This document shows positions 1-25,333 of a DNA stretch of 32,000 nucleotides, one piece after another. The number at the start of each line of letters is the position of its first letter. The first letter of the stretch is position 1. The DNA is from Candidatus Omnitrophota bacterium (GTDB lineage: Bacteria > Omnitrophota > Gorgyraeia > Zapsychrales > JANLHA01). Under the pieces are notes generated by a model that searched no databases, was not told the DNA's origin, and worked only from the letters and a program-made list of their open reading frames with translations. A program made the translations under genes and the position numbers. The stretch is taken from NCBI GenBank assembly GCA_963662715.1, contig OY759724.1, forward strand, positions 720,001 to 752,000, given 5' to 3'.

Positions 1-3000
1 CTTCTGGTCTTCGACACATTCCTTCTTCGGATCTTCGACACATACCGCGCATTCCTCCTGTGACAGCAGACCTAAATCTTCGCATTCTTCCGGCTTGTCC
101 ACACAACCGTAACATTGTTTCCCTTCCCTGGTCTTTTGATCCTCGACACATTCCTTCTTCGGGTCTTCGGCACATACCGCGCATTCCTCCTGTGACAGCA
201 GACCTAAGTCTTCGCATTCTTCCGGCTTGTCCATACAGCTGTAGCATTGCCGGCCTTCTTTAGTCTTCTGGTCTTCGACACATTCCTTCTTCGGATCTTC
301 GACACATACCGCGCATTCCTCCTGTGACAGCAGACCTAAATCGACGCATTCTTCCGGCTTGTCCACACAACCGTAACATTGTTTCCCTTCCCTGGTCTTT
401 TGATCCTCGACACATTCCTTCTTCGGGTCTTTGGTGCAAATCGCGCACTCTTCTTCAGCCAGCAATCCAAGGTCGACGCATTCTTCCGGCTTGTCCATAC
501 AGCTGTAGCATTGCCGGCCTTCTTTAGTCCTCTGGTCTTCGACACATTCCTTCTTCGGATCTTCGACACATACCGCGCATTCCTCCTGTGACAGCAGGCC
601 TAAATCTTCGCATTCTTCCGGCTTGTCCACACAACCGTAACATTGTTTCCCTTCCCTGGTCTTTTGATCCTCGACACATTCCTTCTTCGGGTCTTCGGCA
701 CATACCGCGCATTCCTCCTGCGACAGCAGGCCTAAATCTTCGCACTCTTCCGGCTTATCCATACAGCTGTAGCATTGCCGGCCTTCTTTAGTCTTCTGGT
801 CTTCGACACATTCCTTCTTCGGATCTTCGACACATACCGCGCATTCCTCCTGTGACAGCAGACCTAAATCTTCGCATTCTTCCGGCTTGTCCACACAACC
901 GTAACATTGTTTCCCTTCCCTGGTCTTTTGATCCTCGACACATTCCTTCTTCGGGTCTTCGGCACATACCGCGCATTCCTCCTGTGACAGCAGACCTAAA
1001 TCTTCGCATTCTTCCGGCTTGTCCATACAGCTGTAGCATTGCCGGCCTTCTTTAGTCCTCTGGTCTTCGACACATTCCTTCTTCGGATCTTCGACACATA
1101 CCGCGCATTCCTCCTGTGACAGCAGACCTAAATCGACGCATTCTTCCGGCTTGTCCACACAACCGTAACATTGTTTCCCTTCCCTGGTCTTTTGATCCTC
1201 GACACATTCCTTCTTCGGGTCTTTGGTGCAAATCGCGCACTCTTCTTCAGCCAGCAATCCAAGGTCGACGCATTCTTCCGGTTTGTCCATACAGCTGTAG
1301 CATTGCCGGCCTTCTTTAGTCCTCTGGTCTTCGACACATTCCTTCTTCGGGTCTTTGGTGCAAATCGCGCACTCTTCTTCAGCCAGCAATCCAAGGTCGA
1401 CGCATTCTTCCGGTTTGTCCATACAGCTGTAGCATTGCCGGCCTTCTTTAGTCCTCTGGTCTTCGACACATTCCTTCTTCGGATCTTCGACACATACCGC
1501 GCATTCCTCCTGTGACAGCAGACCTAAATCTTCGCATTCTTCCGGCTTGTCCACACAACCGTAACATTGTTTCCCTTCCCTGGTCTTTTGATCCTCGACA
1601 CATTCCTTCTTCGGGTCTTCGGCACATACCGCGCATTCCTCCTGCGACAGCAGGCCTAAATCTTCGCACTCTTCCGGCTTATCCATACAGCTGTAGCATT
1701 GCCGGCCTTCTTTAGTTTTCTGATCCTCGACACATTCCTTCTTCGGATCTTCGACACATACCGCGCATTCCTCCTGCGACAGCAGACCTAAATCTTCGCA
1801 TTCTTCCGGTTTATCCATACAGCTGTAGCATTGCCGGCCTTCCCTGGTCTTCTGATCTTCGACACATTCCTTCCTCGGGTCTTCGACACATACCGCGCAT
1901 TCCTCCTGTGACAGCAGACCTAAGTCTTCGCATGCTTCCGGCTTGTCCATACAGCTGTAGCATTGCCGGCCTTCTTTGGTCTTCTGATCTTCGACACATT
2001 CTTTCTTCGGGTCTTCGACACATACCGCGCATTCCTCCTGTGACAGCAGACCTAAATCTTCGCATGCTTCCGGCTTATCCACACAGCTGTAGCATTGCCG
2101 GCCTTCTTTGGTCTTCTGATCTTCGACACATTCTTTCTTCGGGTCTTCGACACAAATCGCGCACTCTTCTTCAGCCAGCAATCCAAGGTCGACGCATGCT
2201 TCCGGTTTATCCACACAGCTGTAGCATTGCCGGCCTTCTTTAGTCTTCTGATCTTCGATACATTCCTTCTTCGGGTCTTCGACACATACCGCGCATTCCT
2301 CCTGTGACAGCAGACCTAAATCTTCGCATGCTTCCGGCTTATCCACACAGCTGTAGCATTGCCGGCCTTCTTTGGTCTTCTGATCTTCGACACATTCTTT
2401 CTTCGGGTCTTCGACACATACCGCGCATTCCTCCTGTGACAGCAGACCTAAATCTTCGCATGCTTCCGGTTTATCCACACAGCTGTAGCATTGCCGGCCT
2501 TCTTTAGTCTTCTGATCTTCGATACATTCCTTCTTCGGGTCTTCGACACATACCGCGCATTCCTCCTGCGACAGCAGGCCTAAATCAATACATTCTTCCG
2601 ATTTATCCATACAGTTGTAGCATTGCCGGCCTTCCTTGGTCTTCTGATCCTCGACACATTCCTTCTTCGGGTCTTTGACACATACCGCGCATTCCTCCTG
2701 TGACAGCAGACCTAAATCGACGCATTCTTCCGGTTTATCCATACAGCTGTAGCATTGCCGGCCTTCTTTAGTTTTCTGATCCTCGACACATTCTTTCTTC
2801 GGGTCTTCAGCACATACCGCGCATTCCTCCTGTGACAGCAGGCCTAAATCTTCGCATGCTTCCGGTTTGTCCATACAGCTGTAGCATTGCCGGCCTTCTT
2901 TGGTCTTCTGATCTTCGACACATTCTTTCTTCGGGTCTTCAGCACATACCGCGCATTCCTCCTGTGACAGCAGGCCTAAATCTTCGCATGCTTCCGGCTT

Positions 3001-4260
3001 GTCCATACAGCTGTAGCATTGCTGACCTTCTCTGGTCTTTTGATCTTCGACACATTCCTTCTTCGGGTCTTCGACACATACCGCGCATTCCTCCTGCGAC
3101 AGCAGGCCTAAATCAATACATTCTTCCGGCTTGTCCACACAGCCGTAGCATTGCCGGCCTTCTTTGGTCTTCTGATCCTCGACACATTCTTTCTTCGGGT
3201 CTTTGGTGCAAATCGCGCACTCTTCTTCAGCCAGCAATCCAAGGTCATCGCATTCTTCCGGTTTGTCCATACAGCTGTAGCATTGCCGGCCTTCTTTAGT
3301 CTTCTGATCTTCGATACATTCCTTCTTCGGGTCTTCGACACATACCGCGCATTCCTCCTGCGACAGCAGGCCTAAATCAATACATTCTTCCGGTTTGTCC
3401 ATACAGCTGTAGCATTGCCGGCCTTCCTTGGTCTTTTGATCTTCGACACATTCTTTCTTCGGGTCTTCGACACATACCGCGCATTCCTCCTGTGACAGCA
3501 GGCCTAAATCGTCGCACTCTTCCGGCTTATCCATACAGCTGTAGCATTGCCGGCCTTCTTTAGTCTTCTGATCCTCGACACATTCTTTCTTCGGGTCTTC
3601 GACACATACCACGCATTCCTCCTGCGACAGCAGGCCTAAATCAATACATTCTTCCGATTTATCCATACAGCTGTAGCATTGCTGTCCTTCTTTAGTCTTC
3701 TGATCCTCGACACATTTCTTCCTCGGATCTTCAGTGCAAATCGCGCACTCTTCTTCAGCCAATAATCCAAGGTCGACGCATTCTTCCGGTTTATCCACAC
3801 AGCTGTAGCATTGCTGTCCTTCTCTGGTCTTCTGATCCTCGACACATTTCTTCCTCGGATCTTCAGTGCAAATCGCGCACTCTTCTTCAGCCAATAATCC
3901 AAGGTCGACGCATTCTTCCGGTTTATCCATACAGTTGTAGCATTGCTGTCCTTCTCTGGTCTTCTGATCCTCGACACATTTCTTCCTCGGATCTTCAGTG
4001 CAAATCGCGCACTCTTCTTCAGCCAATAATCCAAGGTCGACGCATTCTTCCGGTTTATCCATACAGCTGTAGCATTGCTGTCCTTCTCTGGTCTTCTGAT
4101 CCTCGACACATTTCTTCCTCGGATCTTCAGTGCAAATCGCGCACTCTTCTTCAGCCAATAATCCAAGGTCGACGCATTCTTCCGGTTTATCCATACAGCT
4201 GTAGCATTGCTGTCCTTCCTTGGTCTTCTGATCCTCGACACATTTCTTCCTGCGATCTTT
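1..4260. repeat. Tandem array of about 32 near-identical 132-bp units, coding and in frame, with higher-order periodicity. Six more diverged units continue to about 4975.
   Basis: The anchor string cataccgcgc (A-type unit) or gcaaatcgcgc (B-type unit) recurs at exactly 132-bp steps: 41, 173, 305, 437(B), 569, 701, 833, 965, 1097, 1229(B), 1361(B), 1493 ... 3737(B), 3869(B), 4001(B), 4133(B). Block 1..528 recurs almost identically at 793..1320, a 792-bp (6-unit) higher-order repeat. Off-frame track ORFs 60..263 and 852..1055 differ by one residue. Units with anchors at 4265 to 4925 keep the protein motif but are diverged at the DNA level. Confidence 0.95.
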
Positions 4261-5208
4261 CTCGCATCTTCTGCATTCTGACTCAGATATTAAACCCAAA
4301 TCCGTGCACTCTTTAGGCTTATCCACACAGCTGAAGCATTGCTTGCCTTCTTTGGTCTGCTGAGCTTCAACACATTCCTTCTTCGGATCCCTGCCACACT
4401 TTTTGCATTCTGCTTTTGACATCAATCCCAAATCTGCACATTCTTCCGGTTTATCAATGCAAAGATAACATTGAGTACCCTCTTTCGTTTTTTTGCTAAG
4501 AACACATTCCTTTTTCGGGTTAGTTTCACAAAGATCACATTCCTGCACATCCAGCAATCCCAAATCCGGACATTTTTCTATCCGATTGACGCATTCAAAA
4601 CAAGATAATCCCACTCCAATATCTTTAGAAAATTTACACTCTTTACCGGGGTTAATCTCGCAACCTTCCTGACACTCGCCCCAAGCTAAAAGGTCAAAAT
4701 CCGAGCATTTTTCATGACTCTCTTTACACTCAAAGCATTGCCGGCCCTGCTTAGTTCTCTTTGAACGCACGCATTCCGCCCCCGGGATCTCTGCGCAAAG
4801 CTGACACTCTTCTCTATTAAGCAATCCGATATCGTTACATTGCTGAAGTTTCTCCGTACACTCATAACACTGCAGGCCTTCATTAGTACGGCGGGAGCGC
4901 CGGCATTCCGCATTAGGAATTTCATCGCACAGGGAACACTCCTCCTCGGTAATGAGGCCTATCTCACTGCACAACTGCGGCAATAATTCTGTAGTGATCG
5001 GGATGTCCTTATCTGGGGTATGGAAGGTTGCTCCTTTCTTAGGATTCGGAAAGGGCAGAGTTTGACGCTTCTTTTTTATCTCCTCCCAAAATTTCTTTAG
5101 ATCAAAAGCCTCTGCCGGACGGACTAAGGGAGAAGCAAAAAATGAACCGCAGATTATTCCAAGAACACATAGTACAATCCGTAAATCATTTTTACGTCTA
5201 ATTGTCAT
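1..5208 (-). CDS. Giant secreted, acidic, cysteine-rich tandem-repeat protein (N-terminal 1736 codons; the frame is open to the left window edge, so the 3' end is outside the window)
   Basis: Absent from the supplied ORF track because there is no stop codon inside the window. Hand translation of the minus strand from ATG 5208..5206 gives MTIRRKNDLRIVLCVLGIICGSFFASPLVRPAEA/FDLKKFWEEIKKKRQ..., a Sec-type signal peptide with an AxA site. About 38 in-frame 44-aa units follow, with consensus T-[KR]-E-G-x-Q-C-Y-x-C-x-D-K-P-E-E-C-x-D-L-G-L-L-x-x-E-E-C-A-x-C-x-E-D-P-K-K-E-C-V-E-D-Q-K. I translated 5208..4261 and 264..1 codon by codon and found no stop. Every minus-strand ORF the track lists inside 1..5208 starts at a coordinate with mod 3 = 1 or 2. 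The frame with mod 3 = 0 never produces a start-to-stop ORF, as expected if it is continuously open. The 132-bp period equals 44 codons, so every repeat copy preserves the frame. Confidence 0.85.
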   Translation of the reverse strand, partial: MTIRRKNDLRIVLCVLGIICGSFFASPLVRPAEAFDLKKFWEEIKKKRQTLPFPNPKKGATFHTPDKDIPITTELLPQLCSEIGLITEEECSLCDEIPNAECRRSRRTNEGLQCYECTEKLQQCNDIGLLNREECQLCAEIPGAECVRSKRTKQGRQCFECKESHEKCSDFDLLAWGECQEGCEINPGKECKFSKDIGVGLSCFECVNRIEKCPDLGLLDVQECDLCETNPKKECVLSKKTKEGTQCYLCIDKPEECADLGLMSKAECKKCGRDPKKECVEAQQTKEGKQCFSCVDKPKECTDLGLISESECRRCEKDRRKKCVEDQKTKEGQQCYSCMDKPEECVDLGLLAEEECAICTEDPRKKCVEDQKTREGQQCYSCMDKPEECVDLGLLAEEECAICTEDPRKKCVEDQKTREGQQCYNCMDKPEECVDLGLLAEEECAICTEDPRKKCVEDQKTREGQQCYSCVDKPEECVDLGLLAEEECAICTEDPRKKCVEDQKTKEGQQCYSCMDKSEECIDLGLLSQEECVVCVEDPKKECVEDQKTKEGRQCYSCMDKPEECDDLGLLSQEECAVCVEDPKKECVEDQKTKEGRQCYSCMDKPEECIDLGLLSQEECAVCVEDPKKECIEDQKTKEGRQCYSCMDKPEECDDLGLLAEEECAICTKDPKKECVEDQKTKEGRQCYGCVDKPEECIDLGLLSQEECAVCVEDPKKECVEDQKTREGQQCYSCMDKPEACEDLGLLSQEECAVCAEDPKKECVEDQKTKEGRQCYSCMDKPEACEDLGLLSQEECAVCAEDPKKECVEDQKTKEGRQCYSCMDKPEECVDLGLLSQEECAVCVKDPKKECVEDQKTKEGRQCYNCMDKSEECIDLGLLSQEECAVCVEDPKKECIEDQKTKEGRQCYSCVDKPEACEDLGLLSQEECAVCVEDPKKECVEDQKTKEGRQCYSCVDKPEACEDLGLLSQEECAVCVEDPKKECIEDQKTKEGRQCYSCVDKPEACVDLGLLAEEECAICVEDPKKECVEDQKTKEGRQCYSCVDKPEACEDLGLLSQEECAVCVEDPKKECVEDQKTKEGRQCYSCMDKPEACEDLGLLSQEECAVCVEDPRKECVEDQKTREGRQCYSCMDKPEECEDLGLLSQEECAVCVEDPKKECVEDQKTKEGRQCYSCMDKPEECEDLGLLSQEECAVCAEDPKKECVEDQKTREGKQCYGCVDKPEECEDLGLLSQEECAVCVEDPKKECVEDQRTKEGRQCYSCMDKPEECVDLGLLAEEECAICTKDPKKECVEDQRTKEGRQCYSCMDKPEECVDLGLLAEEECAICTKDPKKECVEDQKTREGKQCYGCVDKPEECVDLGLLSQEECAVCVEDPKKECVEDQRTKEGRQCYSCMDKPEECEDLGLLSQEECAVCAEDPKKECVEDQKTREGKQCYGCVDKPEECEDLGLLSQEECAVCVEDPKKECVEDQKTKEGRQCYSCMDKPEECEDLGLLSQEECAVCAEDPKKECVEDQKTREGKQCYGCVDKPEECEDLGLLSQEECAVCVEDPKKECVEDQRTKEGRQCYSCMDKPEECVDLGLLAEEECAICTKDPKKECVEDQKTREGKQCYGCVDKPEECVDLGLLSQEECAVCVEDPKKECVEDQKTKEGRQCYSCMDKPEECEDLGLLSQEECAVCAEDPKKECVEDQKTREGKQCYGCVDKPEECEDLGLLSQEECAVCVEDPKKECVEDQK

Positions 5209-7325
5209 TTCTTATCCGAAATATCCACCCCTTCCGGAACAACCTTTTGGGGAATGCTCATGGTTATCTGGACTTGACCGTTATCTAAAAATTGCTCTGC
5301 TTCAACAATCAACAGTTCTTCGATTTCAGTTTCATCTATATGGCAAATATCCGCTAATTCTTTCTTCGTCTGTTCAATTGTCAATTTTTTAGCCATCTCT
5401 TTTTGAATTTCCTCACTAGCATTCTGCATTTTTAATGGTTTGGAAATCCGGGTAAAGTAAATTCTTTCCTCCTGCTGAAGCGCCCCGGGATCAAAAGTAA
5501 AGACTTTGACTTCATCTACGTTATAATCAGAAACATATATTTTCCCTTCTGACCAAGACACAGAAGAAAGAGAAGGGAAATAACTACGCCCTCTGCCAAT
5601 ACTGCCGAACTGCATAATAAGCTGATTCTTGGGGGTAAATATCTTTATAGCGTGATCGCCTCGATCGGCCACATACAAGTTATCATTATCATCCAAAGCA
5701 ATATCAATGGGATCTTTAAACTTGATCATATCTTTCCTGCCGCCGACCTCTCTTAAAAACAGGCCCTCATGGTCGAAGACCTGAATACGGTTATTCTTAT
5801 AATCCAGCACATATAATTCGCCTTTGGAATTAAACGCCAAATCTTTCGGTTCAGAAAAAGTGCCCGGCTTGGGGCCGTGGACATACACCTCTTCACTCTC
5901 TTTCCCGAACGTTTTCAGATAAATTCCGTCGCTGTTGAACACCTGGATCCGGTTATTTTTTGAATCAGAGATATAAATATACCCCTCATCATCAAGGGTT
6001 ACCCCGCCTAAAGCAAGAAATTCGCTCCGGTCTTTTCCTTTCTTGCCAAATTGATAATCAAAGGAACCATCCGCCTTCAAGAATTGCACGCGGTGATTAC
6101 CCGTATCCGTGATAAGAATACGCCCGTCTTCAGCGACAAATAAGGCTTGCGGGTTTCTAAGTTTGCGGTTTTCATCTTCTGTTTTCCCGAATACGAGTTT
6201 CGTGTCGCCAATAAAGGTGATTTGAGCATAATAATCTGACAGGGCATACAATCCCCGGCCCGGGACAGCCTTCAGATCCGCGATCATTTTCCCTGTATAA
6301 ATTGAGGAATCATAATCAAGCATGGGAGGGACAAAAGGAACCGTCTTTAAAGCAGTTTTGCTGCTCCCGGTAATGTTGAAAAACTGGATCCTCCCATTCA
6401 TAGTATCTGCAATATACACCTTACCATCAAGATCACAGGAAATACTTGCCGGCCAATTAAACTGCCCCTTGCCAACCCCCTGAGACCCGAACGAAAACAG
6501 AATCTGTTCTGTCTGGTCCATCTTGACAATGCTGTTGTTCTTCCATTCAATGAGATAAATATCACCCCGGTAATCGACCGCGATACCGGCTGTTTCTGTT
6601 AAGTAGTTCGTTTCCGCATTCTTTAACGACAACTCCTCTGGATTTCCCTGATTGGGAGGATATTTCACAATCTTTCCTTCTTCCTGCGCCAAAACATAAA
6701 GATTCCGCTGTTTATCAAAAGCTAAATCATAAGGACTGAAGTTCACCCCCATGGTTTCCAAAAACACTCCTTTGGGGGTATACTTGGTAATTGCATTATT
6801 TTTTATATCTGCCACGTATATGTACCCGAGAGGATCCACGGCAACCGAACTGATTCTGCGATATTCACCCGGCTCTTTGCCTCCGTTGCCCATTTCATAC
6901 AGGAACTCACCGCTTGCTTTAAAGACCTGTAAACGGTTGTTTCCGGTGTCCGCCACAATAACATCCCCTGAAGAAGTCAAAGCAATGGATTCCGGGACAT
7001 GGAACTGTTTTAACTGGGTGCCCTGTTCTCCGAAACTCAATTTTATTTTTCCTTCGGGACCAAAAATAAAAACTTTAGCCAATTTTCTGTCCAGGACATA
7101 GATGTCACCGGTGGCCGATATGACAGTATCCACGGGTTCCGCCAGTTCGGCCACGATTTCTCCAAGGAACTCAACTTCTTCAACCGCCGACACTCGCCCT
7201 GCGGGAACGAAAATCAAAGACAACACCATAACGATCGGGAAAAACCTCCATCGACTTATTTTCTTCTGAATTTTTGTTTTCATTTGATGTATCCTTTCTT
7301 GCAATTTTTCATTTTTTCTTTTCAT
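5205..7325 (-). CDS. Secreted NHL-repeat protein: about 12 NHL blades (two six-bladed beta-propellers) plus an acidic C-terminal tail
   Basis: Track ORF 5205..7331. About 12 recurrences of the NHL signature P-x-x-[IL]-A-[LV]-D-x-x-G-x-[IL]-Y-[VI]-[AS]-D-x-x-N-x-R-[IV]-Q-[VF]-F-x-x-x-G-x-[FL], for example GDVIVADTGNNRLQVF, GYIYISDSKNNRIQVF, GELYVLDYKNNRIQVF, GRILITDTGNHRVQFL and GKVYIADTMNGRIQFF. The N-terminal hydrophobic segment FFPIVMVLSLIFVPAGRVSA/VEE looks like a signal peptide. I prefer ATG 7325..7323 as the start. AGGAGG at 7337..7332 abuts the TTG at 7331 with no spacer but lies 6 nt from that ATG. The TGA stop at 5207..5205 overlaps the ATG of the downstream giant ORF. Confidence 0.9.
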   Translation of the reverse strand: MKRKNEKLQERIHQMKTKIQKKISRWRFFPIVMVLSLIFVPAGRVSAVEEVEFLGEIVAELAEPVDTVISATGDIYVLDRKLAKVFIFGPEGKIKLSFGEQGTQLKQFHVPESIALTSSGDVIVADTGNNRLQVFKASGEFLYEMGNGGKEPGEYRRISSVAVDPLGYIYVADIKNNAITKYTPKGVFLETMGVNFSPYDLAFDKQRNLYVLAQEEGKIVKYPPNQGNPEELSLKNAETNYLTETAGIAVDYRGDIYLIEWKNNSIVKMDQTEQILFSFGSQGVGKGQFNWPASISCDLDGKVYIADTMNGRIQFFNITGSSKTALKTVPFVPPMLDYDSSIYTGKMIADLKAVPGRGLYALSDYYAQITFIGDTKLVFGKTEDENRKLRNPQALFVAEDGRILITDTGNHRVQFLKADGSFDYQFGKKGKDRSEFLALGGVTLDDEGYIYISDSKNNRIQVFNSDGIYLKTFGKESEEVYVHGPKPGTFSEPKDLAFNSKGELYVLDYKNNRIQVFDHEGLFLREVGGRKDMIKFKDPIDIALDDNDNLYVADRGDHAIKIFTPKNQLIMQFGSIGRGRSYFPSLSSVSWSEGKIYVSDYNVDEVKVFTFDPGALQQEERIYFTRISKPLKMQNASEEIQKEMAKKLTIEQTKKELADICHIDETEIEELLIVEAEQFLDNGQVQITMSIPQKVVPEGVDISDKK

Positions 7326-7375: not shown

Positions 7376-7385
7376 ATATTATAAT

Positions 7386-7470
7386 ATTTCGGTAACCAGG
7401 CTGTCCTTATCCCAGGACCCTATAGCTTTGCGTCCCCACCTTGCGATGGGTTTGCCCTTTTCGTCTATGT
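7386..7470 (-). promoter_or_regulatory. c-di-GMP-I (GEMM-I) riboswitch aptamer, proximal copy
   Basis: Minus-strand RNA: GACGAAAAGGGCAAACCCAUCGCAAGGUGGGGACGCAAAGCUAUAGGGUCCUGGGAUAAGGACAGCCUGGUUACCGAAAU. It aligns by eye to the Vibrio cholerae Vc2 aptamer (ACAGGGCAAACCAUUCGAAAGAGUGGGACGCAAAGCCUCCGG...GGGGUUACCGAUGG). GGGCAAACC is identical, then comes a hairpin closed by a GNRA tetraloop (CCCAUC-GCAA-GGUGGG), then GGGACGCAAAGC is identical. A second bulged hairpin follows (GGGUCC...GGAC-AG-CC), then GGUUACCGA. Confidence 0.8.
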
Positions 7471-10397: not shown

Positions 10398-11693
10398 TCA
10401 AACTTCTCTTAAATACCCCCAGGCGTGCAGCCGGTCGCTGTCATCATACCAACGGTCACCGATATCTTTACGGTAATACATGCTCGGGATGATCACATTG
10501 TTAACCCGGTTGTAGACCTGATTTTGGGCCTGTTTCATCGTCTGTCCTTGTCCGCAGACAACCAAAGCGACCCCGGTATTCCCGGCAATAAGCCACTGCT
10601 GATTGATTCTTTTAACATCTTCAATGTGAATCCCGTCAAGATTTTCTGATTTCTTAAAAAGGATAGCCGCATCTTTCGACTGGGACTGGAAAGTGTTGTC
10701 GTCATTGAAAGGATATGGAGGGGCCACAATCCGCACCCCGATCTGAAATCCCCGGCGGGTTTTAAAAGTGTTAAGGGAACCCTCTGCCAGCTGAAAAAGA
10801 AAATCAGAAATAGGGATGAGGATTCCTTCCTGCTGAATGCTGATCGTCGGATATCCAAAGCGTGATGTGAACTCCAAAGGATAAATCCCTTGAGCGTTAA
10901 CAATACAGTTGATATCGATATATCCGACATAATGTTCTTCCTGAAGCTTTTTTTCCATCTTTTTAAGCGTAGCGTTAAAAATCCTGTTCGCTCCGCTCCA
11001 GTACATAAACGTGCCCATCTCTCCTGTCGAAGGGCCGATATTCCCGGGAAAAAGTTTTTTGTGTTCAAAGTTGATATTAATGGGAAACGCGAATTCTTTT
11101 CCGTTGAAAAAGGCGCCTACGGCAACTTCAACACCGGCCATCCTTTTTTGCAGCTGAAAAATCTTGATTTCATTAAACCAGGCTTTTTTGTAAGCTTCCA
11201 AAACCTGAATAATATCTTTGCCGTCTTCTTCCTGCCCGACAAAAAGCAGGCGTTTGATATTTTGAGCCTCACCGCTGGGTTTGATCACGTAACGGGAAGG
11301 ATTGGCTTTCACGTAGGAAACGGCATCATCAAAAGAAGAAAATTCCATAAAGGGGATAATATTAATACCCGCGGATTTCATCTCCTGTTGCCCAAAGGTC
11401 CGGTCATCCTCCAGCCTGTCTGTATACGGGGTGCCTCCTATAACGTATTTCCCTTTACGTCTAAGATCCTGAGCCAGATGTCCGAACCCGAGGACATCAT
11501 CAAAAACAATCACGTCGGCCCATTCGATATCCCGGGTCCAGTCATCCGTTTTCGGGACAAAACCATCGGCAACATCCTTGGCGGACTCATTCTTAATAAA
11601 ATATTTAACGTCATGTCCTTGATTTACGACCTGCCAGGCAATATCATTGATCAAGGCGTCATAAGAAACAAATAAAAATTTCTTTTTATCCAC
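10398..11693 (-). CDS. PurD-like ATP-grasp ligase (divergent phosphoribosylamine-glycine ligase homologue)
   Basis: 431-aa ORF with a GTG start preceded by GGAGGA. FEHKKLFPGNIGPSTGEMGT parallels PurD DHKR..DGD.GPNTGGMG. GYIDINCIVNAQGIYPLEFTSRFGYP parallels PurD G.LY.GLM.T..GPKVLEFN.RFGDPE. VIKPSGEAQ parallels V[VI]KADGLAAGKG. The N-terminus lacks the canonical GSGGREHA motif. Confidence 0.55.
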   Translation of the reverse strand: MDKKKFLFVSYDALINDIAWQVVNQGHDVKYFIKNESAKDVADGFVPKTDDWTRDIEWADVIVFDDVLGFGHLAQDLRRKGKYVIGGTPYTDRLEDDRTFGQQEMKSAGINIIPFMEFSSFDDAVSYVKANPSRYVIKPSGEAQNIKRLLFVGQEEDGKDIIQVLEAYKKAWFNEIKIFQLQKRMAGVEVAVGAFFNGKEFAFPININFEHKKLFPGNIGPSTGEMGTFMYWSGANRIFNATLKKMEKKLQEEHYVGYIDINCIVNAQGIYPLEFTSRFGYPTISIQQEGILIPISDFLFQLAEGSLNTFKTRRGFQIGVRIVAPPYPFNDDNTFQSQSKDAAILFKKSENLDGIHIEDVKRINQQWLIAGNTGVALVVCGQGQTMKQAQNQVYNRVNNVIIPSMYYRKDIGDRWYDDSDRLHAWGYLREV

Positions 11694-11773
11694 CTGTCTG
11701 CTCCTCCCGCAAAGACCCTATCCGGTCATACCCAAAGCCAGTTCAATAAAATCCACGGGCGCTCCCCTCCCGT

Positions 11774-12868
11774 CTACTCATCTCCGAAACAGGTCCCGAC
11801 AGAACGCGCCGAACGGATAAGCAGATGATTGTTCGAAATAAGCCTCGGGCCAATCGCCACCTCCTGCAGCGGGACATCGATGACCTGCCCTCCTTTGAGG
11901 CCCACCATATATCCGAACTTTTTATTCTGAATCATATCAACGACCTGTGTGCCGAACTGTGTTGCCAGCACCCGGTCGTAGGCACTCGGAGAGCCGCCCC
12001 GCTGCAGGTGTCCCATGACAACGGCCCGCGCCTCCAATCCGGTCATTTTTTCGATCTGGTCCACCAGGACAAAACTGACCCCGCCCAAACGCACCGGCTC
12101 CGAGGCATCTTTCACGATTTTTTTCACAACCACTGCTCCGCCCTTTGGTTTGGCGCCCTCAGCGACAACGATGATACTAAATCGCTTTCCTTTTTTACTT
12201 CTTTCCTTGACCCGGCTGGCAATCACATCTATATCATAAGGGATCTCGGGGATAAGGATAATGTCCCCGCCCCCGGCAATCCCGGCGTACAAAGCAATCC
12301 ATCCAGCTGTCCGCCCCATCACCTCTAAAACCATGACCCGATGGTGGGACTGGGCTGTCGTATGAAGCCGGTCGATACCCTCCGTGGCGATCTCCACCGC
12401 CGTATCAAAACCAAACGTCACTTCCGTTCCCCGGATATCGTTATCGATCGTCTTAGGCACCCCCACGATCGGTATGCCGTCCTCGAATAAATGATGGGCG
12501 ATTTTCAAAGTTCCGTCCCCGCCGATGCAGACAAGACAACACACACCGAGCTCCTTGATAGTCTTTATGACTTTCTTGGAAACATCTTTGGGGGTCGCTG
12601 ACTTGTCTTTGGGATCGATGTATTTATAAGGATTCGCTTTATTAGACGTCCCCAGAATCGTCCCGCCCAAAGTCAGGATACCGGAAACGGCTTGATAGTC
12701 CAAATGACGGTACCGGTGCTTGATCAAACCTTCATAACCGTCTTCAATTCCGATAACCTCGAGCCCAAGATCCAAGATGGCTTTTTTCGTTACGGCCCGG
12801 ATGACCCCGTTTAACCCCGGGCAGTCTCCCCCGCCGGTTAAAACTGCTATTTTCTTTTTCACCGTCAT
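11774..12868 (-). CDS. pfkA: 6-phosphofructokinase (PfkA family)
   Basis: 364-aa ORF containing the hallmark blocks GGGDCPGLNGVIR, CIGGDGT, PKTIDNDI, GFDTA, MGRTAGWIALYAG and GHLQRGG. Confidence 0.92.
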   Translation of the reverse strand: MTVKKKIAVLTGGGDCPGLNGVIRAVTKKAILDLGLEVIGIEDGYEGLIKHRYRHLDYQAVSGILTLGGTILGTSNKANPYKYIDPKDKSATPKDVSKKVIKTIKELGVCCLVCIGGDGTLKIAHHLFEDGIPIVGVPKTIDNDIRGTEVTFGFDTAVEIATEGIDRLHTTAQSHHRVMVLEVMGRTAGWIALYAGIAGGGDIILIPEIPYDIDVIASRVKERSKKGKRFSIIVVAEGAKPKGGAVVVKKIVKDASEPVRLGGVSFVLVDQIEKMTGLEARAVVMGHLQRGGSPSAYDRVLATQFGTQVVDMIQNKKFGYMVGLKGGQVIDVPLQEVAIGPRLISNNHLLIRSARSVGTCFGDE

Positions 12869-16558: not shown

Positions 16559-16683
16559 GAGTAAGATTCTTTTCTGCCCTCTTAATAGTGTGCAATTTTT
16601 TCAGGCATGAAAAATTGGATTATCCGATCCAACTATGCTATTTTATTAAGGAATTATTATCTTCATTTATTATATTTCTTATT

Positions 16684-18438
16684 ATGAAAAAATCGATCAT
16701 TTTATTATTCATCTTCCTGAGCCAGTATGCTTTTGCTTACGCAGACGATATTCAGCTGGAAACCGGAGAGTCCCTTTCCTGCCTTTTCCTGGATAGGACC
16801 GGTTCGGAAATCTTTCTGGATTGTCAAAATGACGGGTTACAATCATACGCCATTACGAAAGTCCGGAGTGTTAACGGAGAGAAGGTCCTCCCCGTTGATG
16901 ACAAACTCTTGTCCTGGATAAAATCTCAGCAAAGCTCCTTCACTCAGATGCCTCTGAGTTTTGACATCCTTGATCAGGAAAGAATGGATTCGTATAAACG
17001 CATGGGAGAGCCTGACTCTATCACAGGGATCATTGAACGCCTCATTGTGGAAGAAGGAATGTCCGTGTATGATACGGCCGTCCGGCAGATTGCCTTGACG
17101 ATGATCGGCGGTCTTCAGAACCTGAAGTCCGCCTACCTTCCCATTCAGACATATTGGGACGGACACCTAAGACAACTGATCAACATCCGGGCCGGTTACC
17201 CCTCGCAGCCGTTTATTTATGATCCTTTTCAACCGGAAAGAGTCAGTTCTGATTTGTCCGAGAAAGGCAAACGGGGGTTTCTCTTCCGCATCATTAACGC
17301 CCACGGCCTTTATGACTCCCAAGATCCTCTGGATGGCAAAGAACGGTTCGTCGGGTTTCCTAACTGGCCAACGATCCATTGGGAAGACTGGAAACCTATT
17401 GCCGGAGAAAACGCCTGGGTTGTCATTGCCGCAATGCATCTGCACAAAAAAAGATATCTGAAAAAACCGGATCATAACCCGGACCGCTCTCTGGATACGG
17501 TTGAAATGCGGTTGGCAAAGGAAATCGCCAGGGCAGCCCAACTGCTACAAGCTCCTAACGGAGGAATCCGCATGGCGCCTATCGGCACGTACACGCCTAT
17601 TGTCACGATTGATAAAAATTCCAGCCTTGAAGAAATTTCCCAAACGCTGGATGCTCTTGCACGCTACGAACCTTCCGTGAAAGAAAAAAATCCCGTCAAT
17701 CAACTCTTTGAGAACGGAATGGTTGTCAATGACCAATACATGCCGGAAGAGCTCACGTGGTATTACAATGAAATATCAACGGAAAATAATCTGTCCTGGT
17801 ACACGGCTTTCCGCATGTTGTACGAAGTCACCGGAGAGGAGCGGTATAAAAAATCCATGGAAGATATCGAAAAATACTTCCGGTCGGCCTGGAACGCCTC
17901 CGAATATTATTTCTATCAAGGGATGCATTTCCGTTTTGGGACATGGTTCCCCAACAATGAACACTTTGCCACTGATGTGCAGAACTGGGCGGTAGCAGCT
18001 CTGGGGCCCCAGAAAATCGACGCCTGGTTTGGGGAAGGAACGGCATTTAAAATATGGCAAAAGACGAAGAATATATCCGGGAACTTCAATCAGCAGCATA
18101 AAATCCGCGGGGTAGGCTTCACCACGGAGCATGACCGCATTTCCATTGAATGGACCGTAGGCGCAATATTTGCGACGAGGAGTTTAGCGGAATATTATAA
18201 AAAAAGTCACCCGGACTGGGCTGAGGAAGCCGCCCAAGACGCTCAAAACATGCGCAGCAGCATGGAATCCTTCCGCATTGAAATTTCTGATCAAGAAGCC
18301 GCTTACGCCTATTCTTCCAGGCGGGGGTGGATTCCCTTTGGCTGGTTTTCTCATGACCCCAACATCATCAGCTTAGTCTCGACGTGTTGGATCATACTCG
18401 CCGATGCGGACTACAATCCGTTCTTCCTGCCGGAATAA
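16684..18438 (+). CDS. Secreted protein of unknown function
   Basis: Track ORF 16588..18438. I prefer the internal ATG at 16684 because it yields a canonical signal peptide, MKKSIILLFIFLSQYAFA/YADD. No family motif was recognised. W/Y-rich segments (GENAWVVIAAMHL, NLSWYTAFRMLYEVTG) are vaguely reminiscent of alpha/alpha-toroid glycan-active enzymes, but I cannot support that call. This is the only plus-strand gene. Confidence 0.75.
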   Translation: MKKSIILLFIFLSQYAFAYADDIQLETGESLSCLFLDRTGSEIFLDCQNDGLQSYAITKVRSVNGEKVLPVDDKLLSWIKSQQSSFTQMPLSFDILDQERMDSYKRMGEPDSITGIIERLIVEEGMSVYDTAVRQIALTMIGGLQNLKSAYLPIQTYWDGHLRQLINIRAGYPSQPFIYDPFQPERVSSDLSEKGKRGFLFRIINAHGLYDSQDPLDGKERFVGFPNWPTIHWEDWKPIAGENAWVVIAAMHLHKKRYLKKPDHNPDRSLDTVEMRLAKEIARAAQLLQAPNGGIRMAPIGTYTPIVTIDKNSSLEEISQTLDALARYEPSVKEKNPVNQLFENGMVVNDQYMPEELTWYYNEISTENNLSWYTAFRMLYEVTGEERYKKSMEDIEKYFRSAWNASEYYFYQGMHFRFGTWFPNNEHFATDVQNWAVAALGPQKIDAWFGEGTAFKIWQKTKNISGNFNQQHKIRGVGFTTEHDRISIEWTVGAIFATRSLAEYYKKSHPDWAEEAAQDAQNMRSSMESFRIEISDQEAAYAYSSRRGWIPFGWFSHDPNIISLVSTCWIILADADYNPFFLPE

Positions 18439-24589: not shown

Positions 24590-25333
24590 TTAATCTTGGA
24601 CGCTGGTTCGATGATAAGTATCCATTGTCATGAAAAGCTGCCCAGCCTCTCCTTCTTCACGCACCAATCGATATGTTCCCGACACTTTTCCCGCTGTCGG
24701 GCAACAGTTGGCGTCTTCTTCGTTCCAAACAAAAAATTCAAAAAACAAGCCGTCTGCAAGGAACCAGGTCTTCGTCCCCTGCCGGATCTCTTCTCCGGGT
24801 TTTAAATAAGGGACGTAGGCTTTGGCCGCGGGGACAAAATGAACAGGTCTTAATTTCAAGTTATCGTGCCAAAAGACTTCGTACACATGCTCTGTTGTCA
24901 GGGCGGCTGTTCCTTGCGCCGTTTCGGTTATATGAATGATCTGAACGGGCGATTTTTCCCCTTTGATTGAGAAAAAAGAAATCTCTGCTTTAAGATCAGT
25001 AAAAGGCGTGGTTTTGAACTCATTAAGAAGGGATATTTGACCGTTTTGAAGAGAAAGAATTTTAACAATTTTATCAGAAGCGGTATGTTCAACCAAAACA
25101 GTCACTTTGTGATTCTGTAAACTTTCAGCTGTGCATAAGTGTTCGATTTCCGATTCCCGGAGGACGTGCTCCGCTGTTTCATAGATAACAAATGACTTGT
25201 CAGCATATTCATGACTCGGTTCTTGATCGGCAAAGCCATGACAACAGAAAAAAAACGGTCCCATGATTAGAATAAAAAGAATTCCCGCCTGATAGCCGCG
25301 TTGATCATCTCTTAAATGAAAAATCTGTGACAT
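24590..25333 (-). CDS. Hypothetical membrane-anchored or secreted protein
   Basis: 247-aa ORF with an N-terminal hydrophobic segment (AGILFILIMGPFFFCCHGFA). No recognisable motif. Confidence 0.6.
   Translation of the reverse strand: MSQIFHLRDDQRGYQAGILFILIMGPFFFCCHGFADQEPSHEYADKSFVIYETAEHVLRESEIEHLCTAESLQNHKVTVLVEHTASDKIVKILSLQNGQISLLNEFKTTPFTDLKAEISFFSIKGEKSPVQIIHITETAQGTAALTTEHVYEVFWHDNLKLRPVHFVPAAKAYVPYLKPGEEIRQGTKTWFLADGLFFEFFVWNEEDANCCPTAGKVSGTYRLVREEGEAGQLFMTMDTYHRTSVQD

What the first reader, a model, noticed from the sequence alone, without database searches (positions are those of the whole stretch)
1..4975. Unfamiliar 44-aa, six-cysteine, strongly acidic repeat unit
The canonical unit is TKEGRQCYSCMDKPEECEDLGLLSQEECAVCVEDPKKECVEDQK. 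It contains 13 Asp/Glu against 6 Lys/Arg and has cysteines at C-x2-C-x6-C-x10-C-x2-C-x7-C-x11. It can also be read as two 22-aa half-units, each C-x2-C-x6/7-C.

At six Cys per unit and about 38 units, the visible part alone would carry about 230 cysteines. That figure is extrapolated, not counted individually.

The spacing does not match EGF, TNFR or the Myxococcus Cys-rich repeat as I remember them. Paired CxxC knuckles 17 residues apart could form Zn- or Fe-type Cys4 sites. Alternatively, all six Cys could form three disulfides in a rigid extracellular rod. The polyanionic character suggests cation or mineral binding.
Basis: partly seen in the sequence, partly recalled or inferred. Interest (0 to 1): 0.7.

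Follow-up and report, generated by a model that had tools for sequence, protein, structure and literature searches.

The report
New six-cysteine repeat envelope protein
An exported protein of an uncultivated, probably Omnitrophota, bacterium is built from at least 37 copies of an undescribed 44-residue, six-cysteine mini-domain, and probably forms a long cross-braced filament on the cell envelope; the domain family is real and conserved, but its function is untested.

Summary
Positions 1-5208 on the minus strand encode the first 1,736 residues of a protein that runs off the window. It has a signal peptide, a linker, a partial unit and 37 full 44-residue units, with 226 cysteines in an invariant spacing.

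It is a selected protein, not a DNA artefact. pN/pS between units is 0.16. A complete 1,681-aa orthologue with 34 diverged units keeps every cysteine.

The family is rare:
- 30 hits among 1.84 billion representative proteins
- 2 loci from 185,579 species genomes
- 36 metagenome stretches
- none in viral contigs

Every taxonomically labelled member is Omnitrophota and is annotated "hypothetical protein". Pfam and NCBIfam give no match, and Foldseek against PDB gives none with E <= 0.001. The only lead is a weak sequence hit to the MDM2 RING, which shares the cysteine spacing.

AlphaFold predicts a helix plus beta-hairpin bead (pLDDT 81-85). Most relatives are lipoproteins with 2-16 domains and a conserved C-terminal cap. 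The window clade is translationally coupled to a secreted NHL-propeller gene.

Disulfide locking versus metal binding is unresolved. The strong acidity is specific to this lineage.

The parts
1..5208 (-). Coding sequence (5' end complete, 3' end cut by the window edge) of the Cys-rich repeat protein. 1,736 residues are visible.
   Evidence: Single open frame. pN/pS between units is 0.16. Orthologues are found in L003, L002, L010 and L036.
5107..5208 (-). Signal peptide, residues 1-34: MTIRRKNDLRIVLCVLGIICGSFFASPLVRPAEA, with a signal-peptidase-I-type A-x-A site before FDLKKFW.
   Evidence: Read from the translation. The A-x-A|FDLKQFW junction is conserved in L010, L036 and P0015. There is no canonical lipobox here, unlike most relatives. 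No signal-peptide predictor was run.
4987..5106 (-). Non-repeat N-terminal linker, residues 35-74. It leads into the 'LPxxC' N-cap of the array.
   Evidence: Translation. 75% identical over the first 148-150 residues to P0015 = MFA5260619.1, Candidatus Omnitrophota bacterium.
1..4986 (-). Array of six-Cys domains in structural phase: [linker DKPEE]-C-x-D-L-G-L-L-x4-C-x2-C-x7-C-x11-C-[YF]-x-C. There are 37 complete domains plus the start of a 38th at the window edge.
   Evidence: Unit table. Domain phase follows from the array ends. AlphaFold models: residues 75-251 give pLDDT 85.1, and one domain gives pLDDT 80.9. 36 pattern matches versus 0 expected.
5205..7325 (-). Upstream gene for a secreted NHL-repeat protein with two propeller-like regions. 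It is 706 aa from ATG 7325, which has an AGGAGG ribosome-binding site. The maximal ORF starts at TTG 7331.
   Evidence: Pfam NHL E=1e-57. 46% identical to the gene directly upstream of the L003 orthologue. 74% and 73% identical copies lie upstream of the repeat gene in L010 and L036. Start and RBS.
5205..5208 (-). ATGA overlap: the stop codon of the NHL gene overlaps the start codon of the repeat gene, indicating translational coupling.
   Evidence: Sequence read directly.
7378..7407 (-). Sigma-70-like promoter candidate upstream of the NHL gene (AGGACA-18-TATAAT). It is a possible promoter for the two-gene operon.
   Evidence: Consensus scan only, 10 of 12 matches. The number of such sites in the region is no higher than in shuffles. 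Weak evidence.

Best explanation
The gene encodes a Sec-exported envelope or surface protein of a probable Omnitrophota bacterium. It belongs to a previously undescribed family built from a 38-residue alpha/beta mini-domain: a short turn, a helix carrying C-x2-C, and a beta-hairpin ending C-[YF]-x-C. Six invariant cysteines lock each domain, and a 6-residue proline-containing linker joins one domain to the next.

I think the cysteines most likely form three intradomain disulfides. Each bead would then be a rigid, protease-resistant knot, and the chain of at least 37 beads would be a long, semi-flexible filament. Its length would be of the order of 100 nm. That figure is an inference and was not measured on coordinates.

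In relatives, an N-terminal lipid anchor holds the chain to a membrane, and a conserved C-terminal cap domain sits at the far end. Copy number (2 to 37 or more) would then set the reach of the cap.

In the window's clade the anchor is replaced by an ordinary cleavable signal peptide. The gene is also translationally coupled to a secreted NHL beta-propeller protein, which I infer to be its binding partner.

The very acidic surface of this particular protein would keep the filament extended and hydrated and would bind cations. That is a lineage-specific add-on.

Shown here: the gene, export signal, domain anatomy, conservation, purifying selection, family distribution and NHL linkage. Inferred: disulfide chemistry, filament geometry, surface location, and the spacer or adhesion role.
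For: Real, selected protein:
- pN/pS = 0.16 with pS = 0.52 between units.
- The complete orthologue L003:7049-12094 has 34 units. They are too diverged at DNA level for TRF to detect, yet all Cys are kept.

Export and anchoring:
- Signal peptide in the window protein.
- Canonical lipoboxes in at least 9 N-complete relatives, and near-canonical ones in about 5 more.

Domain phase and fold:
- Arrays start at the C17-type Cys and stop after C10.
- AlphaFold gives confident beads (pLDDT 85.1 and 80.9) but a low pTM of 0.39 for four beads. This is consistent with beads on a string.

Core signature:
- Position 41 is Y or F in all 145 cluster representatives, but the selecting pattern allowed only Y/F/H/W there.
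- Conserved L9, L11 and L12.
- A T-K-E-G turn.
- D/E at position 8, a position the selecting pattern itself required to be D or E.

The model places C-x2-C inside a helix and C-[YF]-x-C inside a strand, not in knuckle turns. This suits cystine-stabilised alpha/beta packing better than a Cys4 zinc knuckle.

Every module variant has an even count of six Cys, including the penultimate and cap domains.

Extracellular-module behaviour: the same domain occurs among other six-Cys modules in large secreted proteins that end in a subtilisin S8 protease.

Copy number ranges from 2-3 to 37 or more, with constant N- and C-caps.

NHL linkage: ATGA overlap, and synteny conserved in L003, L010 and L036.
Against: - No coordinates were available, so no S-S distances were measured. 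Disulfide versus metal is therefore not decided.
- At least one relative encodes an anaerobic ribonucleotide reductase, and some Omnitrophota classes are predicted strict anaerobes (PMC10066038). Extracytoplasmic disulfides are less expected in such settings.
- The Cys spacing C-x2-C-x7-C-x11-C-[FY]-x-C is identical to that around zinc site 1 of the MDM2 RING, with a profile hit of E=4e-4.
- No sorting signal, anchor or C-terminus is visible for the window protein itself.
- Genomic neighbours across the wider family are not conserved, so they give no functional hint.
- No expression or localisation data exist.
Confidence: 0.45

Rival explanations
1. Metal-thiolate bead chain. In each domain the two C-x2-C pairs (C17, C20, C40, C43 in domain numbering) bind one Zn, Fe or other soft metal tetrahedrally, as in site 1 of a RING finger. 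The remaining two Cys form one disulfide or a second, weaker site. The protein would then be a periplasmic or extracellular polymer of at least 37 metal sites. The metal would either be purely structural or would serve for storage, buffering or detoxification in anoxic water.
For: - A profile of 72 diverse domains hits only MDM2 RING chains in PDB (E=4.2e-4, 23 bits). The five Cys are aligned at identical spacing, along with a shared Pro, Thr and aromatic residue. The hit got slightly stronger than with the window-only profile, which gave E=1.7e-3.
- A relative encodes an anaerobic RNR, and many Omnitrophota are predicted anaerobes (PMC10066038).
- One clade (L014, L032, L039) has a rubrerythrin-VIT1 iron transporter two genes downstream.
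- An acidic residue at position 8 in all 145 representatives (D in 121) could help metal binding, although the selecting pattern required D or E there.
Against: - The score comes almost entirely from aligned Cys.
- The RING's other four ligands (two His and the last C-x2-C) are absent.
- Pfam RING models do not match, even at E<=10.
- Foldseek finds no RING, zinc ribbon or rubredoxin among the top 50 hits for the single-domain model.
- AlphaFold puts one C-x2-C inside a helix and the other inside a strand, where residues i and i+3 face opposite sides.
- The protein is Sec-exported. From general knowledge, Cys4 zinc sites are rare outside the cytoplasm.
- The VIT1 neighbourhood is limited to one lineage.
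Confidence: 0.25
2. Cross-linked envelope lattice. Some of the cysteines form intermolecular disulfides. The lipoprotein-anchored chains would knit into a rigid proteinaceous coat, in the manner of the chlamydial cysteine-rich outer-membrane complex or the planctomycete cysteine-rich wall proteins.
For: - Lipoprotein anchoring in most relatives.
- 13-14% Cys.
- From general knowledge, Omnitrophota are placed near the PVC group, where such coats occur.
Against: - The strictly even, invariant six-Cys pattern within each independently folding bead points to intradomain use.
- There is no sequence similarity to OmcA, OmcB or YTV families in Pfam.
- The window protein lacks the lipobox.
Confidence: 0.1
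3. Polyprotein precursor. The chain is cut at the linkers to release dozens of 38-44-residue cystine-stabilised helix-hairpin peptides (defensin- or toxin-like) that act on prey or host cells.
For: - The helix-plus-hairpin bead superficially resembles cystine-stabilised alpha/beta toxins. Scorpion toxins and brazzein appear, non-significantly, in the Foldseek list.
- Relatives fuse the modules to a subtilisin protease.
- Predatory or parasitic lifestyles are proposed for some Omnitrophota (PMC10066038).
Against: - The conserved N-cap, penultimate domain and C-cap, together with the lipid anchor, argue for an intact architecture.
- The linker [DE]-[KR]-P-[QE] is not a recognised processing site.
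- Foldseek E-values are 7 or higher.
- Units within one protein stay diverse rather than identical in L003.
Confidence: 0.05
4. Not a gene: a non-coding or mis-assembled tandem DNA repeat that happens to be open in one frame.
For: - A highly regular 132-nt period.
- The full-length product was not returned by the protein-collection search, and the exact L003 product is not in the collection.
Against: - pN/pS = 0.16.
- 1,736 codons without a stop in one frame, against 30-79 stops in the other two.
- A signal peptide and a coupled upstream gene.
- Diverged orthologues in independent assemblies keep the protein pattern.
Confidence: 0.01

Closest known systems
Eukaryotic extracellular six-cysteine modules of about 40 residues (EGF-like, LDL-receptor class A)
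   Same: Same size class, with six invariant Cys per module. They occur in long tandem arrays in exported proteins. Acidic residues are abundant, as in the calcium-binding EGF and LDL-A modules. They serve as rigid spacers or binding modules.
   Different: Different Cys spacing (two C-x2-C pairs here). A helix-plus-hairpin is predicted, rather than an all-beta or calcium-cage fold. There is no Pfam match even at E<=10 and no Foldseek match. The host is bacterial and is restricted to Omnitrophota as far as labelled members show.
MDM2/MDMX RING finger (zinc site 1 region)
   Same: Identical spacing C-x2-C-x7-C-x11-C-[FY]-x-C, with a shared Pro, Thr and aromatic residue. It is the only family that gives hits below E=0.1 in the PDB sequence search (E=4e-4). 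The middle part is a beta-hairpin in both, the MDM2 side being from my recollection of its structure.
   Different: The RING has eight ligands in a cross-brace, and four of them have no counterpart here. The fifth aligned Cys is not a zinc ligand in MDM2 (from memory). RINGs are cytosolic or nuclear, whereas this protein has a signal peptide. There is no Pfam RING hit and no RING among the Foldseek hits.
Giardia variant-specific surface proteins (CXXC-rich coat proteins)
   Same: A surface coat protein with about 12% Cys, dominated by C-x2-C motifs, in an organism living with little oxygen. The same unresolved debate applies, metal binding versus disulfides (from general knowledge).
   Different: No sequence relationship: the Pfam VSP model is not hit. 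VSPs are not regular 44-residue tandem arrays, and they end in a transmembrane helix with a CRGKA tail.
Chlamydial cysteine-rich envelope proteins OmcA (lipoprotein) and OmcB, and planctomycete YTV wall proteins
   Same: Cys-rich envelope proteins, some lipid-anchored, in lineages related to Omnitrophota. They give rigidity through disulfides (from general knowledge).
   Different: No sequence match. Those proteins lack this repeat and rely on intermolecular cross-links. Here the pattern looks intradomain.
SCIFF / ranthipeptide precursors ('six cysteines in forty-five residues')
   Same: Six Cys in about 45 residues. One relative (L002) has a peptide-maturase-like radical SAM gene 175 bp downstream.
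   Different: SCIFF is a single short cytoplasmic precursor with an obligatory adjacent radical SAM/SPASM maturase. Here there is no NCBIfam hit, the protein is exported and tandemly repeated, and the radical SAM neighbour is not conserved (21% identity between L002 and L003).

Membership tests
EGF-like domain | Match to the Pfam EGF-type profiles, with the C-x-C pair in the second half of the module | tested here: not met
   No Pfam family at E<=0.01 for residues 1-440. None at E<=10 for two 3-unit segments or for the full L003 orthologue. The spacing has C-x2-C pairs and no C-x-C.
LDL-receptor class A module | Pfam PF00057 match and the D-x-S-D-E calcium cage before the sixth Cys | tested here: not met
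   No Pfam hit. No such motif appears in the column statistics of 145 domain representatives.
TNFR Cys-rich domain / Myxococcus cysteine-rich repeat | Profile match in Pfam or NCBIfam (TIGRFAM models included) | tested here: not met
   No hits in Pfam or NCBIfam.
RING finger (MDM2 type) | Eight Cys/His ligands in a cross-brace binding two zinc ions | tested here: not met
   Only six Cys per domain. In the aligned stretch (query positions 12-46), neither MDM2 His is matched by a conserved His or Cys in the domain profile, and the RING's last C-x2-C lies beyond the aligned stretch.
RING finger (MDM2 type) | Significant sequence or profile similarity | tested here: inconclusive
   PDB profile search gives E=1.7e-3 with the window-only profile and 4.2e-4 with the diverse profile. 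Only MDM2 chains are hit, and the score is carried by the aligned Cys. Pfam RING models are not hit.
RING finger (MDM2 type) | RING or treble-clef fold | tested here: not met
   Foldseek of the single-domain model against PDB gives a best E of 3.4, with no RING or zinc finger in the top 50. The caveat is that the domain is tiny and the model rests on a shallow alignment.
SCIFF / ranthipeptide precursor | TIGR03973-type profile match and an adjacent radical SAM/SPASM maturase | tested here: not met
   No NCBIfam hit. Radical SAM genes lie near L002 and L003 only, are not orthologous, and score far below the family cut-offs.
Bacterial lipoprotein | Lipobox [LVI][ASTVI][GAS]C at the end of the signal peptide | tested here: not met
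   The window protein has no canonical lipobox and instead carries A-E-A|F. The feature is met in at least 9 relatives (L014, L022, L023, L026, L025, L030, L032, L033, L039, P0016, P0032).
Metallothionein | About 30% Cys, no aromatic residues, no regular secondary structure without metal | tested here: not met
   13.6% Cys. An aromatic residue (Y or F) is always present at position 41, and hydrophobic residues are conserved. AlphaFold predicts a helix and a hairpin with confidence.
Chlamydial OmcA/OmcB, planctomycete YTV, Giardia VSP | Match to the respective Pfam families | tested here: not met
   No Pfam hit at any threshold tried.
Omnitrophota six-Cys repeat family (defined here) | Tandem domains C-x-[DE]-[LI]-G-L-[LI]-x4-C-x2-C-x7-C-x11-C-[YF]-x-C behind a signal peptide and an 'LPxxC' N-cap | tested here: met
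   37 units in the window. The same pattern is found in L002, L003, L004-L039 and P0007-P0032.
Omnitrophota six-Cys repeat family (defined here) | Penultimate variant domain and conserved C-terminal cap (D-C-S-x-C...C-E-E-x-G-L-I-L-F...C-Y-x-C) | not testable with these tools
   The C-terminus lies beyond the window edge, and the source contig could not be retrieved. The cap is present in L002, L003 and about 20 other loci. L004 and L011, which I infer from unit similarity to be C-termini of the window clade, also carry it.

The most novel reading that the evidence does not exclude
Each bead holds a metal ion, Zn or redox-active Fe, in a Cys4 site that mimics half of a RING finger. The protein would then be an exported, membrane-tethered polymer of dozens of metal-thiolate centres. 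That kind of extracytoplasmic metal store, buffer or even electron relay has no described precedent in bacteria, and it would come from an uncultivated phylum of ultra-small cells.
Probability: 0.2. Interest if true: 0.8.

Novelty: new variant of a known kind. Interest (0 to 1): 0.55.

Why it matters
Omnitrophota are a widespread, uncultivated phylum of very small and possibly predatory or symbiotic bacteria. Their envelope and attachment proteins are mostly unannotated.

This finding defines a new, easily recognised domain family. Pfam, NCBIfam and PDB do not cover it, and assemblies and gene catalogues largely miss it because the repeats break short-read contigs. The family has a clear modular architecture: signal peptide or lipid anchor, N-cap, 2 to 37 or more beads, and a C-cap. 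One clade has a conserved partner gene.

The domain is small and confidently modelled, which makes it a tractable target for structure determination. It also offers a clean test of whether these bacteria, several lineages of which are predicted anaerobes, build disulfide-rich or metal-thiolate extracellular proteins.

If the copy-number and reach idea is right, the family would also serve as a genomic marker for how far these cells project their surface tips.

Tried and rejected
1. Known repeat families. Pfam was run at E<=0.01 and E<=10, and NCBIfam at E<=0.01. Nothing matched.

2. Word-indexed homology search.
- The N-terminal 440 residues found only one chimeric-looking fragment, P0001.
- A repeat with an alignment of 82 single units collected only 8 candidates, and none scored. 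That was a wasted search.

Both models therefore rest on window-only internal repeats.

4. Foldseek against PDB gave no match with E<=0.001, either with the four-domain or the single-domain model.

5. Retrieving the source contig to see the C-terminus. Exact-product look-ups of the NHL gene with three different start codons failed. PFK and cupin look-ups returned only a 6.8-kb Logan contig that stops short of the repeat gene.

It was replaced by a hand-made degenerate DNA pattern, which worked.

7. Looking for paired loss of cysteines to infer disulfide connectivity. All 211 near-full-length matches of the domain HMM keep all six Cys. Only the penultimate domain shortens the C3-C4 loop, so there is no signal.

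8. Conserved gene neighbourhood across the whole family. Only clade-specific partners turned up. These are NHL in the window clade, and a response regulator with rubrerythrin-VIT1 in another clade. Otherwise the neighbours are unrelated housekeeping genes.

9. Radical-SAM (RiPP-like) maturation was rejected because the neighbour is not conserved.

10. Literature. Three Omnitrophota giant-protein or ecology papers and two keyword searches mention no such cysteine repeat.

11. Plus-strand and other-frame ORFs inside 1-4975 (for example 1171-1515+, 2832-3299+, 3636-4241-) were treated as shadows of the repeat. I did not search them for homologues. Support for the chosen frame comes from pN/pS, the orthologues and the stop counts.

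Full report
WHAT IS THERE

The repeat lies on the minus strand. One reverse-complement frame is open from the window's left edge to a stop at 5212-5214, while the other two frames carry 30 and 79 stops. The gene starts at ATG 5208. This start overlaps the stop codon of the upstream gene in an ATGA junction.

The product begins with a typical signal peptide, MTIRRKNDLRIVLCVLGIICGSFFASPLVRPAEA, followed by FDLKKFW... Next comes a 40-residue linker, then the array. The array consists of a partial unit that starts at the third-Cys position, followed by 37 full units. 36 units are 44 aa, and one is 45 aa.

Counts for the visible 1,736 residues:
- 228 Cys, of which 226 are in the repeats
- 454 Asp+Glu
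- 251 Lys+Arg

The quoted unit is a consensus, and the closest real units differ from it by one residue.

Tandem Repeats Finder reports a 132-nt period with 33.2 copies, 87% matches and no indels. A degenerate DNA pattern for the skeleton of the unit matches 36 times in the window, against 0 in each of 100 shuffles.

IS IT A REAL, SELECTED PROTEIN?

Between units 4-37, synonymous divergence is 0.52 and non-synonymous divergence is 0.083, so pN/pS is 0.16. Cys codons vary between TGT and TGC while the residue never changes.

A scan of one genome per species found two loci, both in Candidatus Omnitrophota metagenome-assembled genomes:
- L003 holds a complete 1,681-aa orthologue. It has a signal peptide, a half unit, 34 units and a C-terminal cap, with 217 Cys. 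Its units are so diverged at DNA level that TRF reports nothing, yet the Cys spacing is kept.
- L002 holds the C-terminal part of another member, with the same cap.

The alternative of a non-coding or artefactual repeat is therefore rejected.

HOW COMMON IS IT, AND WHOSE IS IT?

- A full HMMER pass of a single-unit profile over 1.84 billion representative proteins gave only 30 hits at E<=1e-3, and two of those are spurious repeats.
- The DNA pattern found 36 stretches in the metagenome collection and none in the viral collection.
- Both members with an NCBI protein accession are 'hypothetical protein' of Candidatus Omnitrophota/Omnitrophica. They are P0010 = MCA9399512.1 and P0015 = MFA5260619.1. 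P0015 is 75% identical to the window's first 148-150 residues.
- The window's own neighbours are singletons at 90% identity on a 3.36-Mb contig.

I infer that the source is an Omnitrophota genome. This was not tested directly.

The full-length window product was not returned by the protein-collection search, and the exact L003 product is not in the collection. Most metagenomic copies are cut at contig ends. The repeats evidently break short-read assemblies.

ANATOMY OF THE FAMILY

This Cys is preceded by a conserved '...YLxxLPxC' N-cap, which reads 'ELLPQLC' in the window. In L003, the one complete orthologue whose array end was read, the last domain stops after the second Cys of a unit.

The structural domain is therefore C-x-[DE]-[LI]-G-L-[LI]-x4-C-x2-C-x7-C-x11-C-[YF]-x-C, followed by a 6-residue linker [DE]-[KR]-P-[QE]-x.

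I selected 317 canonical domain instances by their Cys spacing and clustered them below 62% identity, which left 145 representatives. Their column statistics are as follows:
- The six Cys are present by construction.
- Position 41 is always Y or F (the selecting pattern allowed Y, F, H or W).
- Position 8 is D in 121 and E in 24 (the selecting pattern required D or E).
- G37 occurs in 129 and T34 in 123.

An independent domain-HMM search kept all six Cys in all 211 near-full-length matches, apart from three copies of the shortened penultimate domain, where one Cys column is gapped.

After the array come two further six-Cys elements:
- a penultimate variant domain (LGLLxxxECEYKCTxC...GEQCFxC)
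- a conserved cap (D-C-S-x-C...C-E-E-x-G-L-I-L-F-[YH]...C-Y-x-C)

Copy number varies widely:

| Members | Domains |
|---|---|
| P0016, P0022 | 2-3 |
| ~815-860-aa proteins (L013, L014, L028, L030, L032, L033, L039, L008) | 12-16 |
| L003 | 34 |
| window protein | at least 37 |

Most N-complete relatives have a canonical lipobox, so they are lipoproteins. The window clade (window, L010, L036, P0015) instead keeps a conserved A-x-A|FDLKQFW junction.

The same domain also occurs 1-10 times among other six-Cys modules, all ending C-[YFH]-x-C. These lie in large secreted proteins that end in a subtilisin S8 protease. Examples are P0012, P0017, P0020, P0021, P0024, P0026, L009, L027 and L031.

GENOMIC CONTEXT

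In the window, the upstream gene (5205-7325) has ATG 7325 as its best start, with an AGGAGG ribosome-binding site. It encodes a secreted NHL-repeat protein (Pfam NHL E=1e-57).

Its orthologue sits directly upstream of the repeat gene in three other loci:
- L003 (the same sequence as L029), at 46% identity
- L010, at 74% identity
- L036, at 73% identity

Other neighbours of L003 and L002 are unrelated.

A different clade (L014, L030, L032, L039) has a response-regulator gene upstream. In three of those loci, a 152-aa unknown gene and a rubrerythrin-VIT1 transporter lie downstream. Elsewhere the neighbours are housekeeping genes.

The NHL pairing is therefore a clade-specific two-gene cassette and not a family-wide rule.

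STRUCTURE

- Residues 75-251 (four domains) gave pLDDT 85.1 but pTM 0.39. Two of the five models were confident.
- A single canonical domain gave pLDDT 80.9 in all five models.

Each bead has a short N-terminal turn, a helix that contains the first C-x2-C, and a beta-hairpin. The first strand of the hairpin holds the fourth Cys. The second strand holds C-[YF]-x-C.

Foldseek against PDB found nothing significant. The best E-values were 0.86 and 3.4, and no zinc finger, RING, EGF or LDL-A appeared in the lists.

By sequence, the only PDB family hit below E=0.1 is the MDM2 RING. The window-only profile gave E=1.7e-3, and a profile of 72 diverse domains gave E=4.2e-4. The alignment superposes C-x2-C-x7-C-x11-C-[FY]-x-C exactly.

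This hit shows that the spacing is compatible with a Cys4 zinc site. However, the score is carried by the cysteines, the RING's other four ligands are missing, and the predicted fold does not look RING-like. I treat it as a lead only.

MECHANISM

I favour a chain of independently folded, cystine-locked beads forming a long envelope or surface filament (confidence 0.45). Copy number would set the filament's length, and the conserved cap would be the functional tip. In this clade the NHL propeller protein would be a partner.

The reasons are:
- The protein is exported.
- Relatives are lipid-anchored.
- Every module type has an even, invariant six-Cys count.
- The domain has a hydrophobic or aromatic core.
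- The C-x2-C motifs sit inside regular secondary structure.
- The same domain is used in secreted proteases.

The main rival (0.25) is a structural or functional metal-thiolate site in each bead. This is supported by the RING-like spacing, by the anaerobic ribonucleotide reductase near one relative, by the predicted anaerobic lifestyle of several Omnitrophota classes (PMC10066038), and by one iron-transporter neighbourhood.

I could not decide between these two because the tools return no coordinates.

Lesser rivals are an intermolecularly cross-linked coat (0.1) and a polyprotein of toxin-like peptides (0.05).

THE ACIDITY

Net charge per 100 residues is -11.7 in the window protein, -3.7 in L003 and -0.9 in L002. 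The polyanionic character is therefore lineage-specific. It cannot define the function of the family, although it may add cation binding or electrostatic stiffening here.

COMPARISON WITH KNOWN FAMILIES, AND NOVELTY

In kind, this is a small disulfide- or metal-braced module repeated in an exported protein. EGF and LDL-A arrays, Giardia VSPs and the chlamydial and planctomycete Cys-rich envelope proteins are of the same kind. It fails every membership test I could run for those families, and also for RING, SCIFF and metallothionein (see the membership table).

I found no paper that describes it.

I rate it a new variant of a known kind. It is a new domain family with a defined architecture, and all labelled members are Omnitrophota. 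Its function and its cysteine chemistry remain open.

Noticed in passing
P0012, P0017, P0018, P0020, P0021, P0024, P0026, P0029; L009, L017, L027, L031: Large secreted proteins (1,300-2,400 aa, 8-14% Cys). Their N-terminal parts are mosaics of several different six-Cys modules, all ending C-[YFH]-x-C, and include 1-10 copies of the window's domain. Where the C-terminus is present, it is a subtilisin S8 protease. In L009, L027 and L031 a small homologous gene follows downstream; the L031 copy matches Pfam YceI.
   Followed up: partly
L014:7768-8595, 11268-12602; L032; L039: One clade of ~820-850-aa lipoprotein family members is flanked by a response-regulator gene upstream. Downstream lie a 152-aa unknown gene and a rubrerythrin-VIT1 (iron/manganese transporter) gene. 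This may bear on the metal hypothesis, but it is confined to one lineage.
   Followed up: partly
L002:1521-2420: A radical SAM gene lies 175 bp downstream of the repeat gene. Its best, far sub-threshold, similarity is to HxsC-type peptide maturases. It is not orthologous to the radical SAM gene near L003.
   Followed up: yes
P0001 (263 aa, ENA contig of 1,398 bp): The only hit of the word-indexed search looks chimeric. It joins an HSP20-like C-terminal segment in frame to 2.7 repeat units, followed by junk. This is probably a mis-assembly or a frameshift.
   Followed up: no
window 18469-24324 (-): A 1,951-aa bacterial alpha-2-macroglobulin (MG2, bait region, thioester domain and MG10 are all present). 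It is unrelated to the finding.
   Followed up: no
window 25741-30402 (-), 30440-31999 (-), 16588-18438 (+), 24590-25333 (-): A 1,553-aa protein with only a HEAT-repeat hit and almost no cysteine (0.06%), plus three further long ORFs with no Pfam match at all.
   Followed up: no
window 10398-11693 (-): An ATP-grasp protein resembling phosphoribosylamine-glycine ligase (PurD) scores far below the family cut-off (106 versus 288 bits). It may be a divergent paralogue with another substrate. The same gene order (PFK, this gene, NupC transporter, cupin) is seen on the Logan contig L001.
   Followed up: no
window 1-4400 (-): Units fall into a few DNA/protein subtypes (TKEGRQCYSCM versus TREGKQCYGCV; LLSQEECAVC versus LLAEEECAIC) that are shuffled in mosaic fashion. 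DNA identity is slightly higher at even lags (2, 4, 6 units) than at most odd lags (3, 5; lag 1 matches lag 4). This suggests recombination between repeats and a partial two-unit super-period. The N-terminal five units are the most diverged.
   Followed up: partly
window 1-5208 and L003:7049-12094: Neither full-length product turned up in the 15-billion-protein collection, although neighbouring genes of the window are there. The exact NHL product is also not on record with any of three start codons. Long repeat genes of this family are systematically under-represented in protein catalogues.
   Followed up: partly
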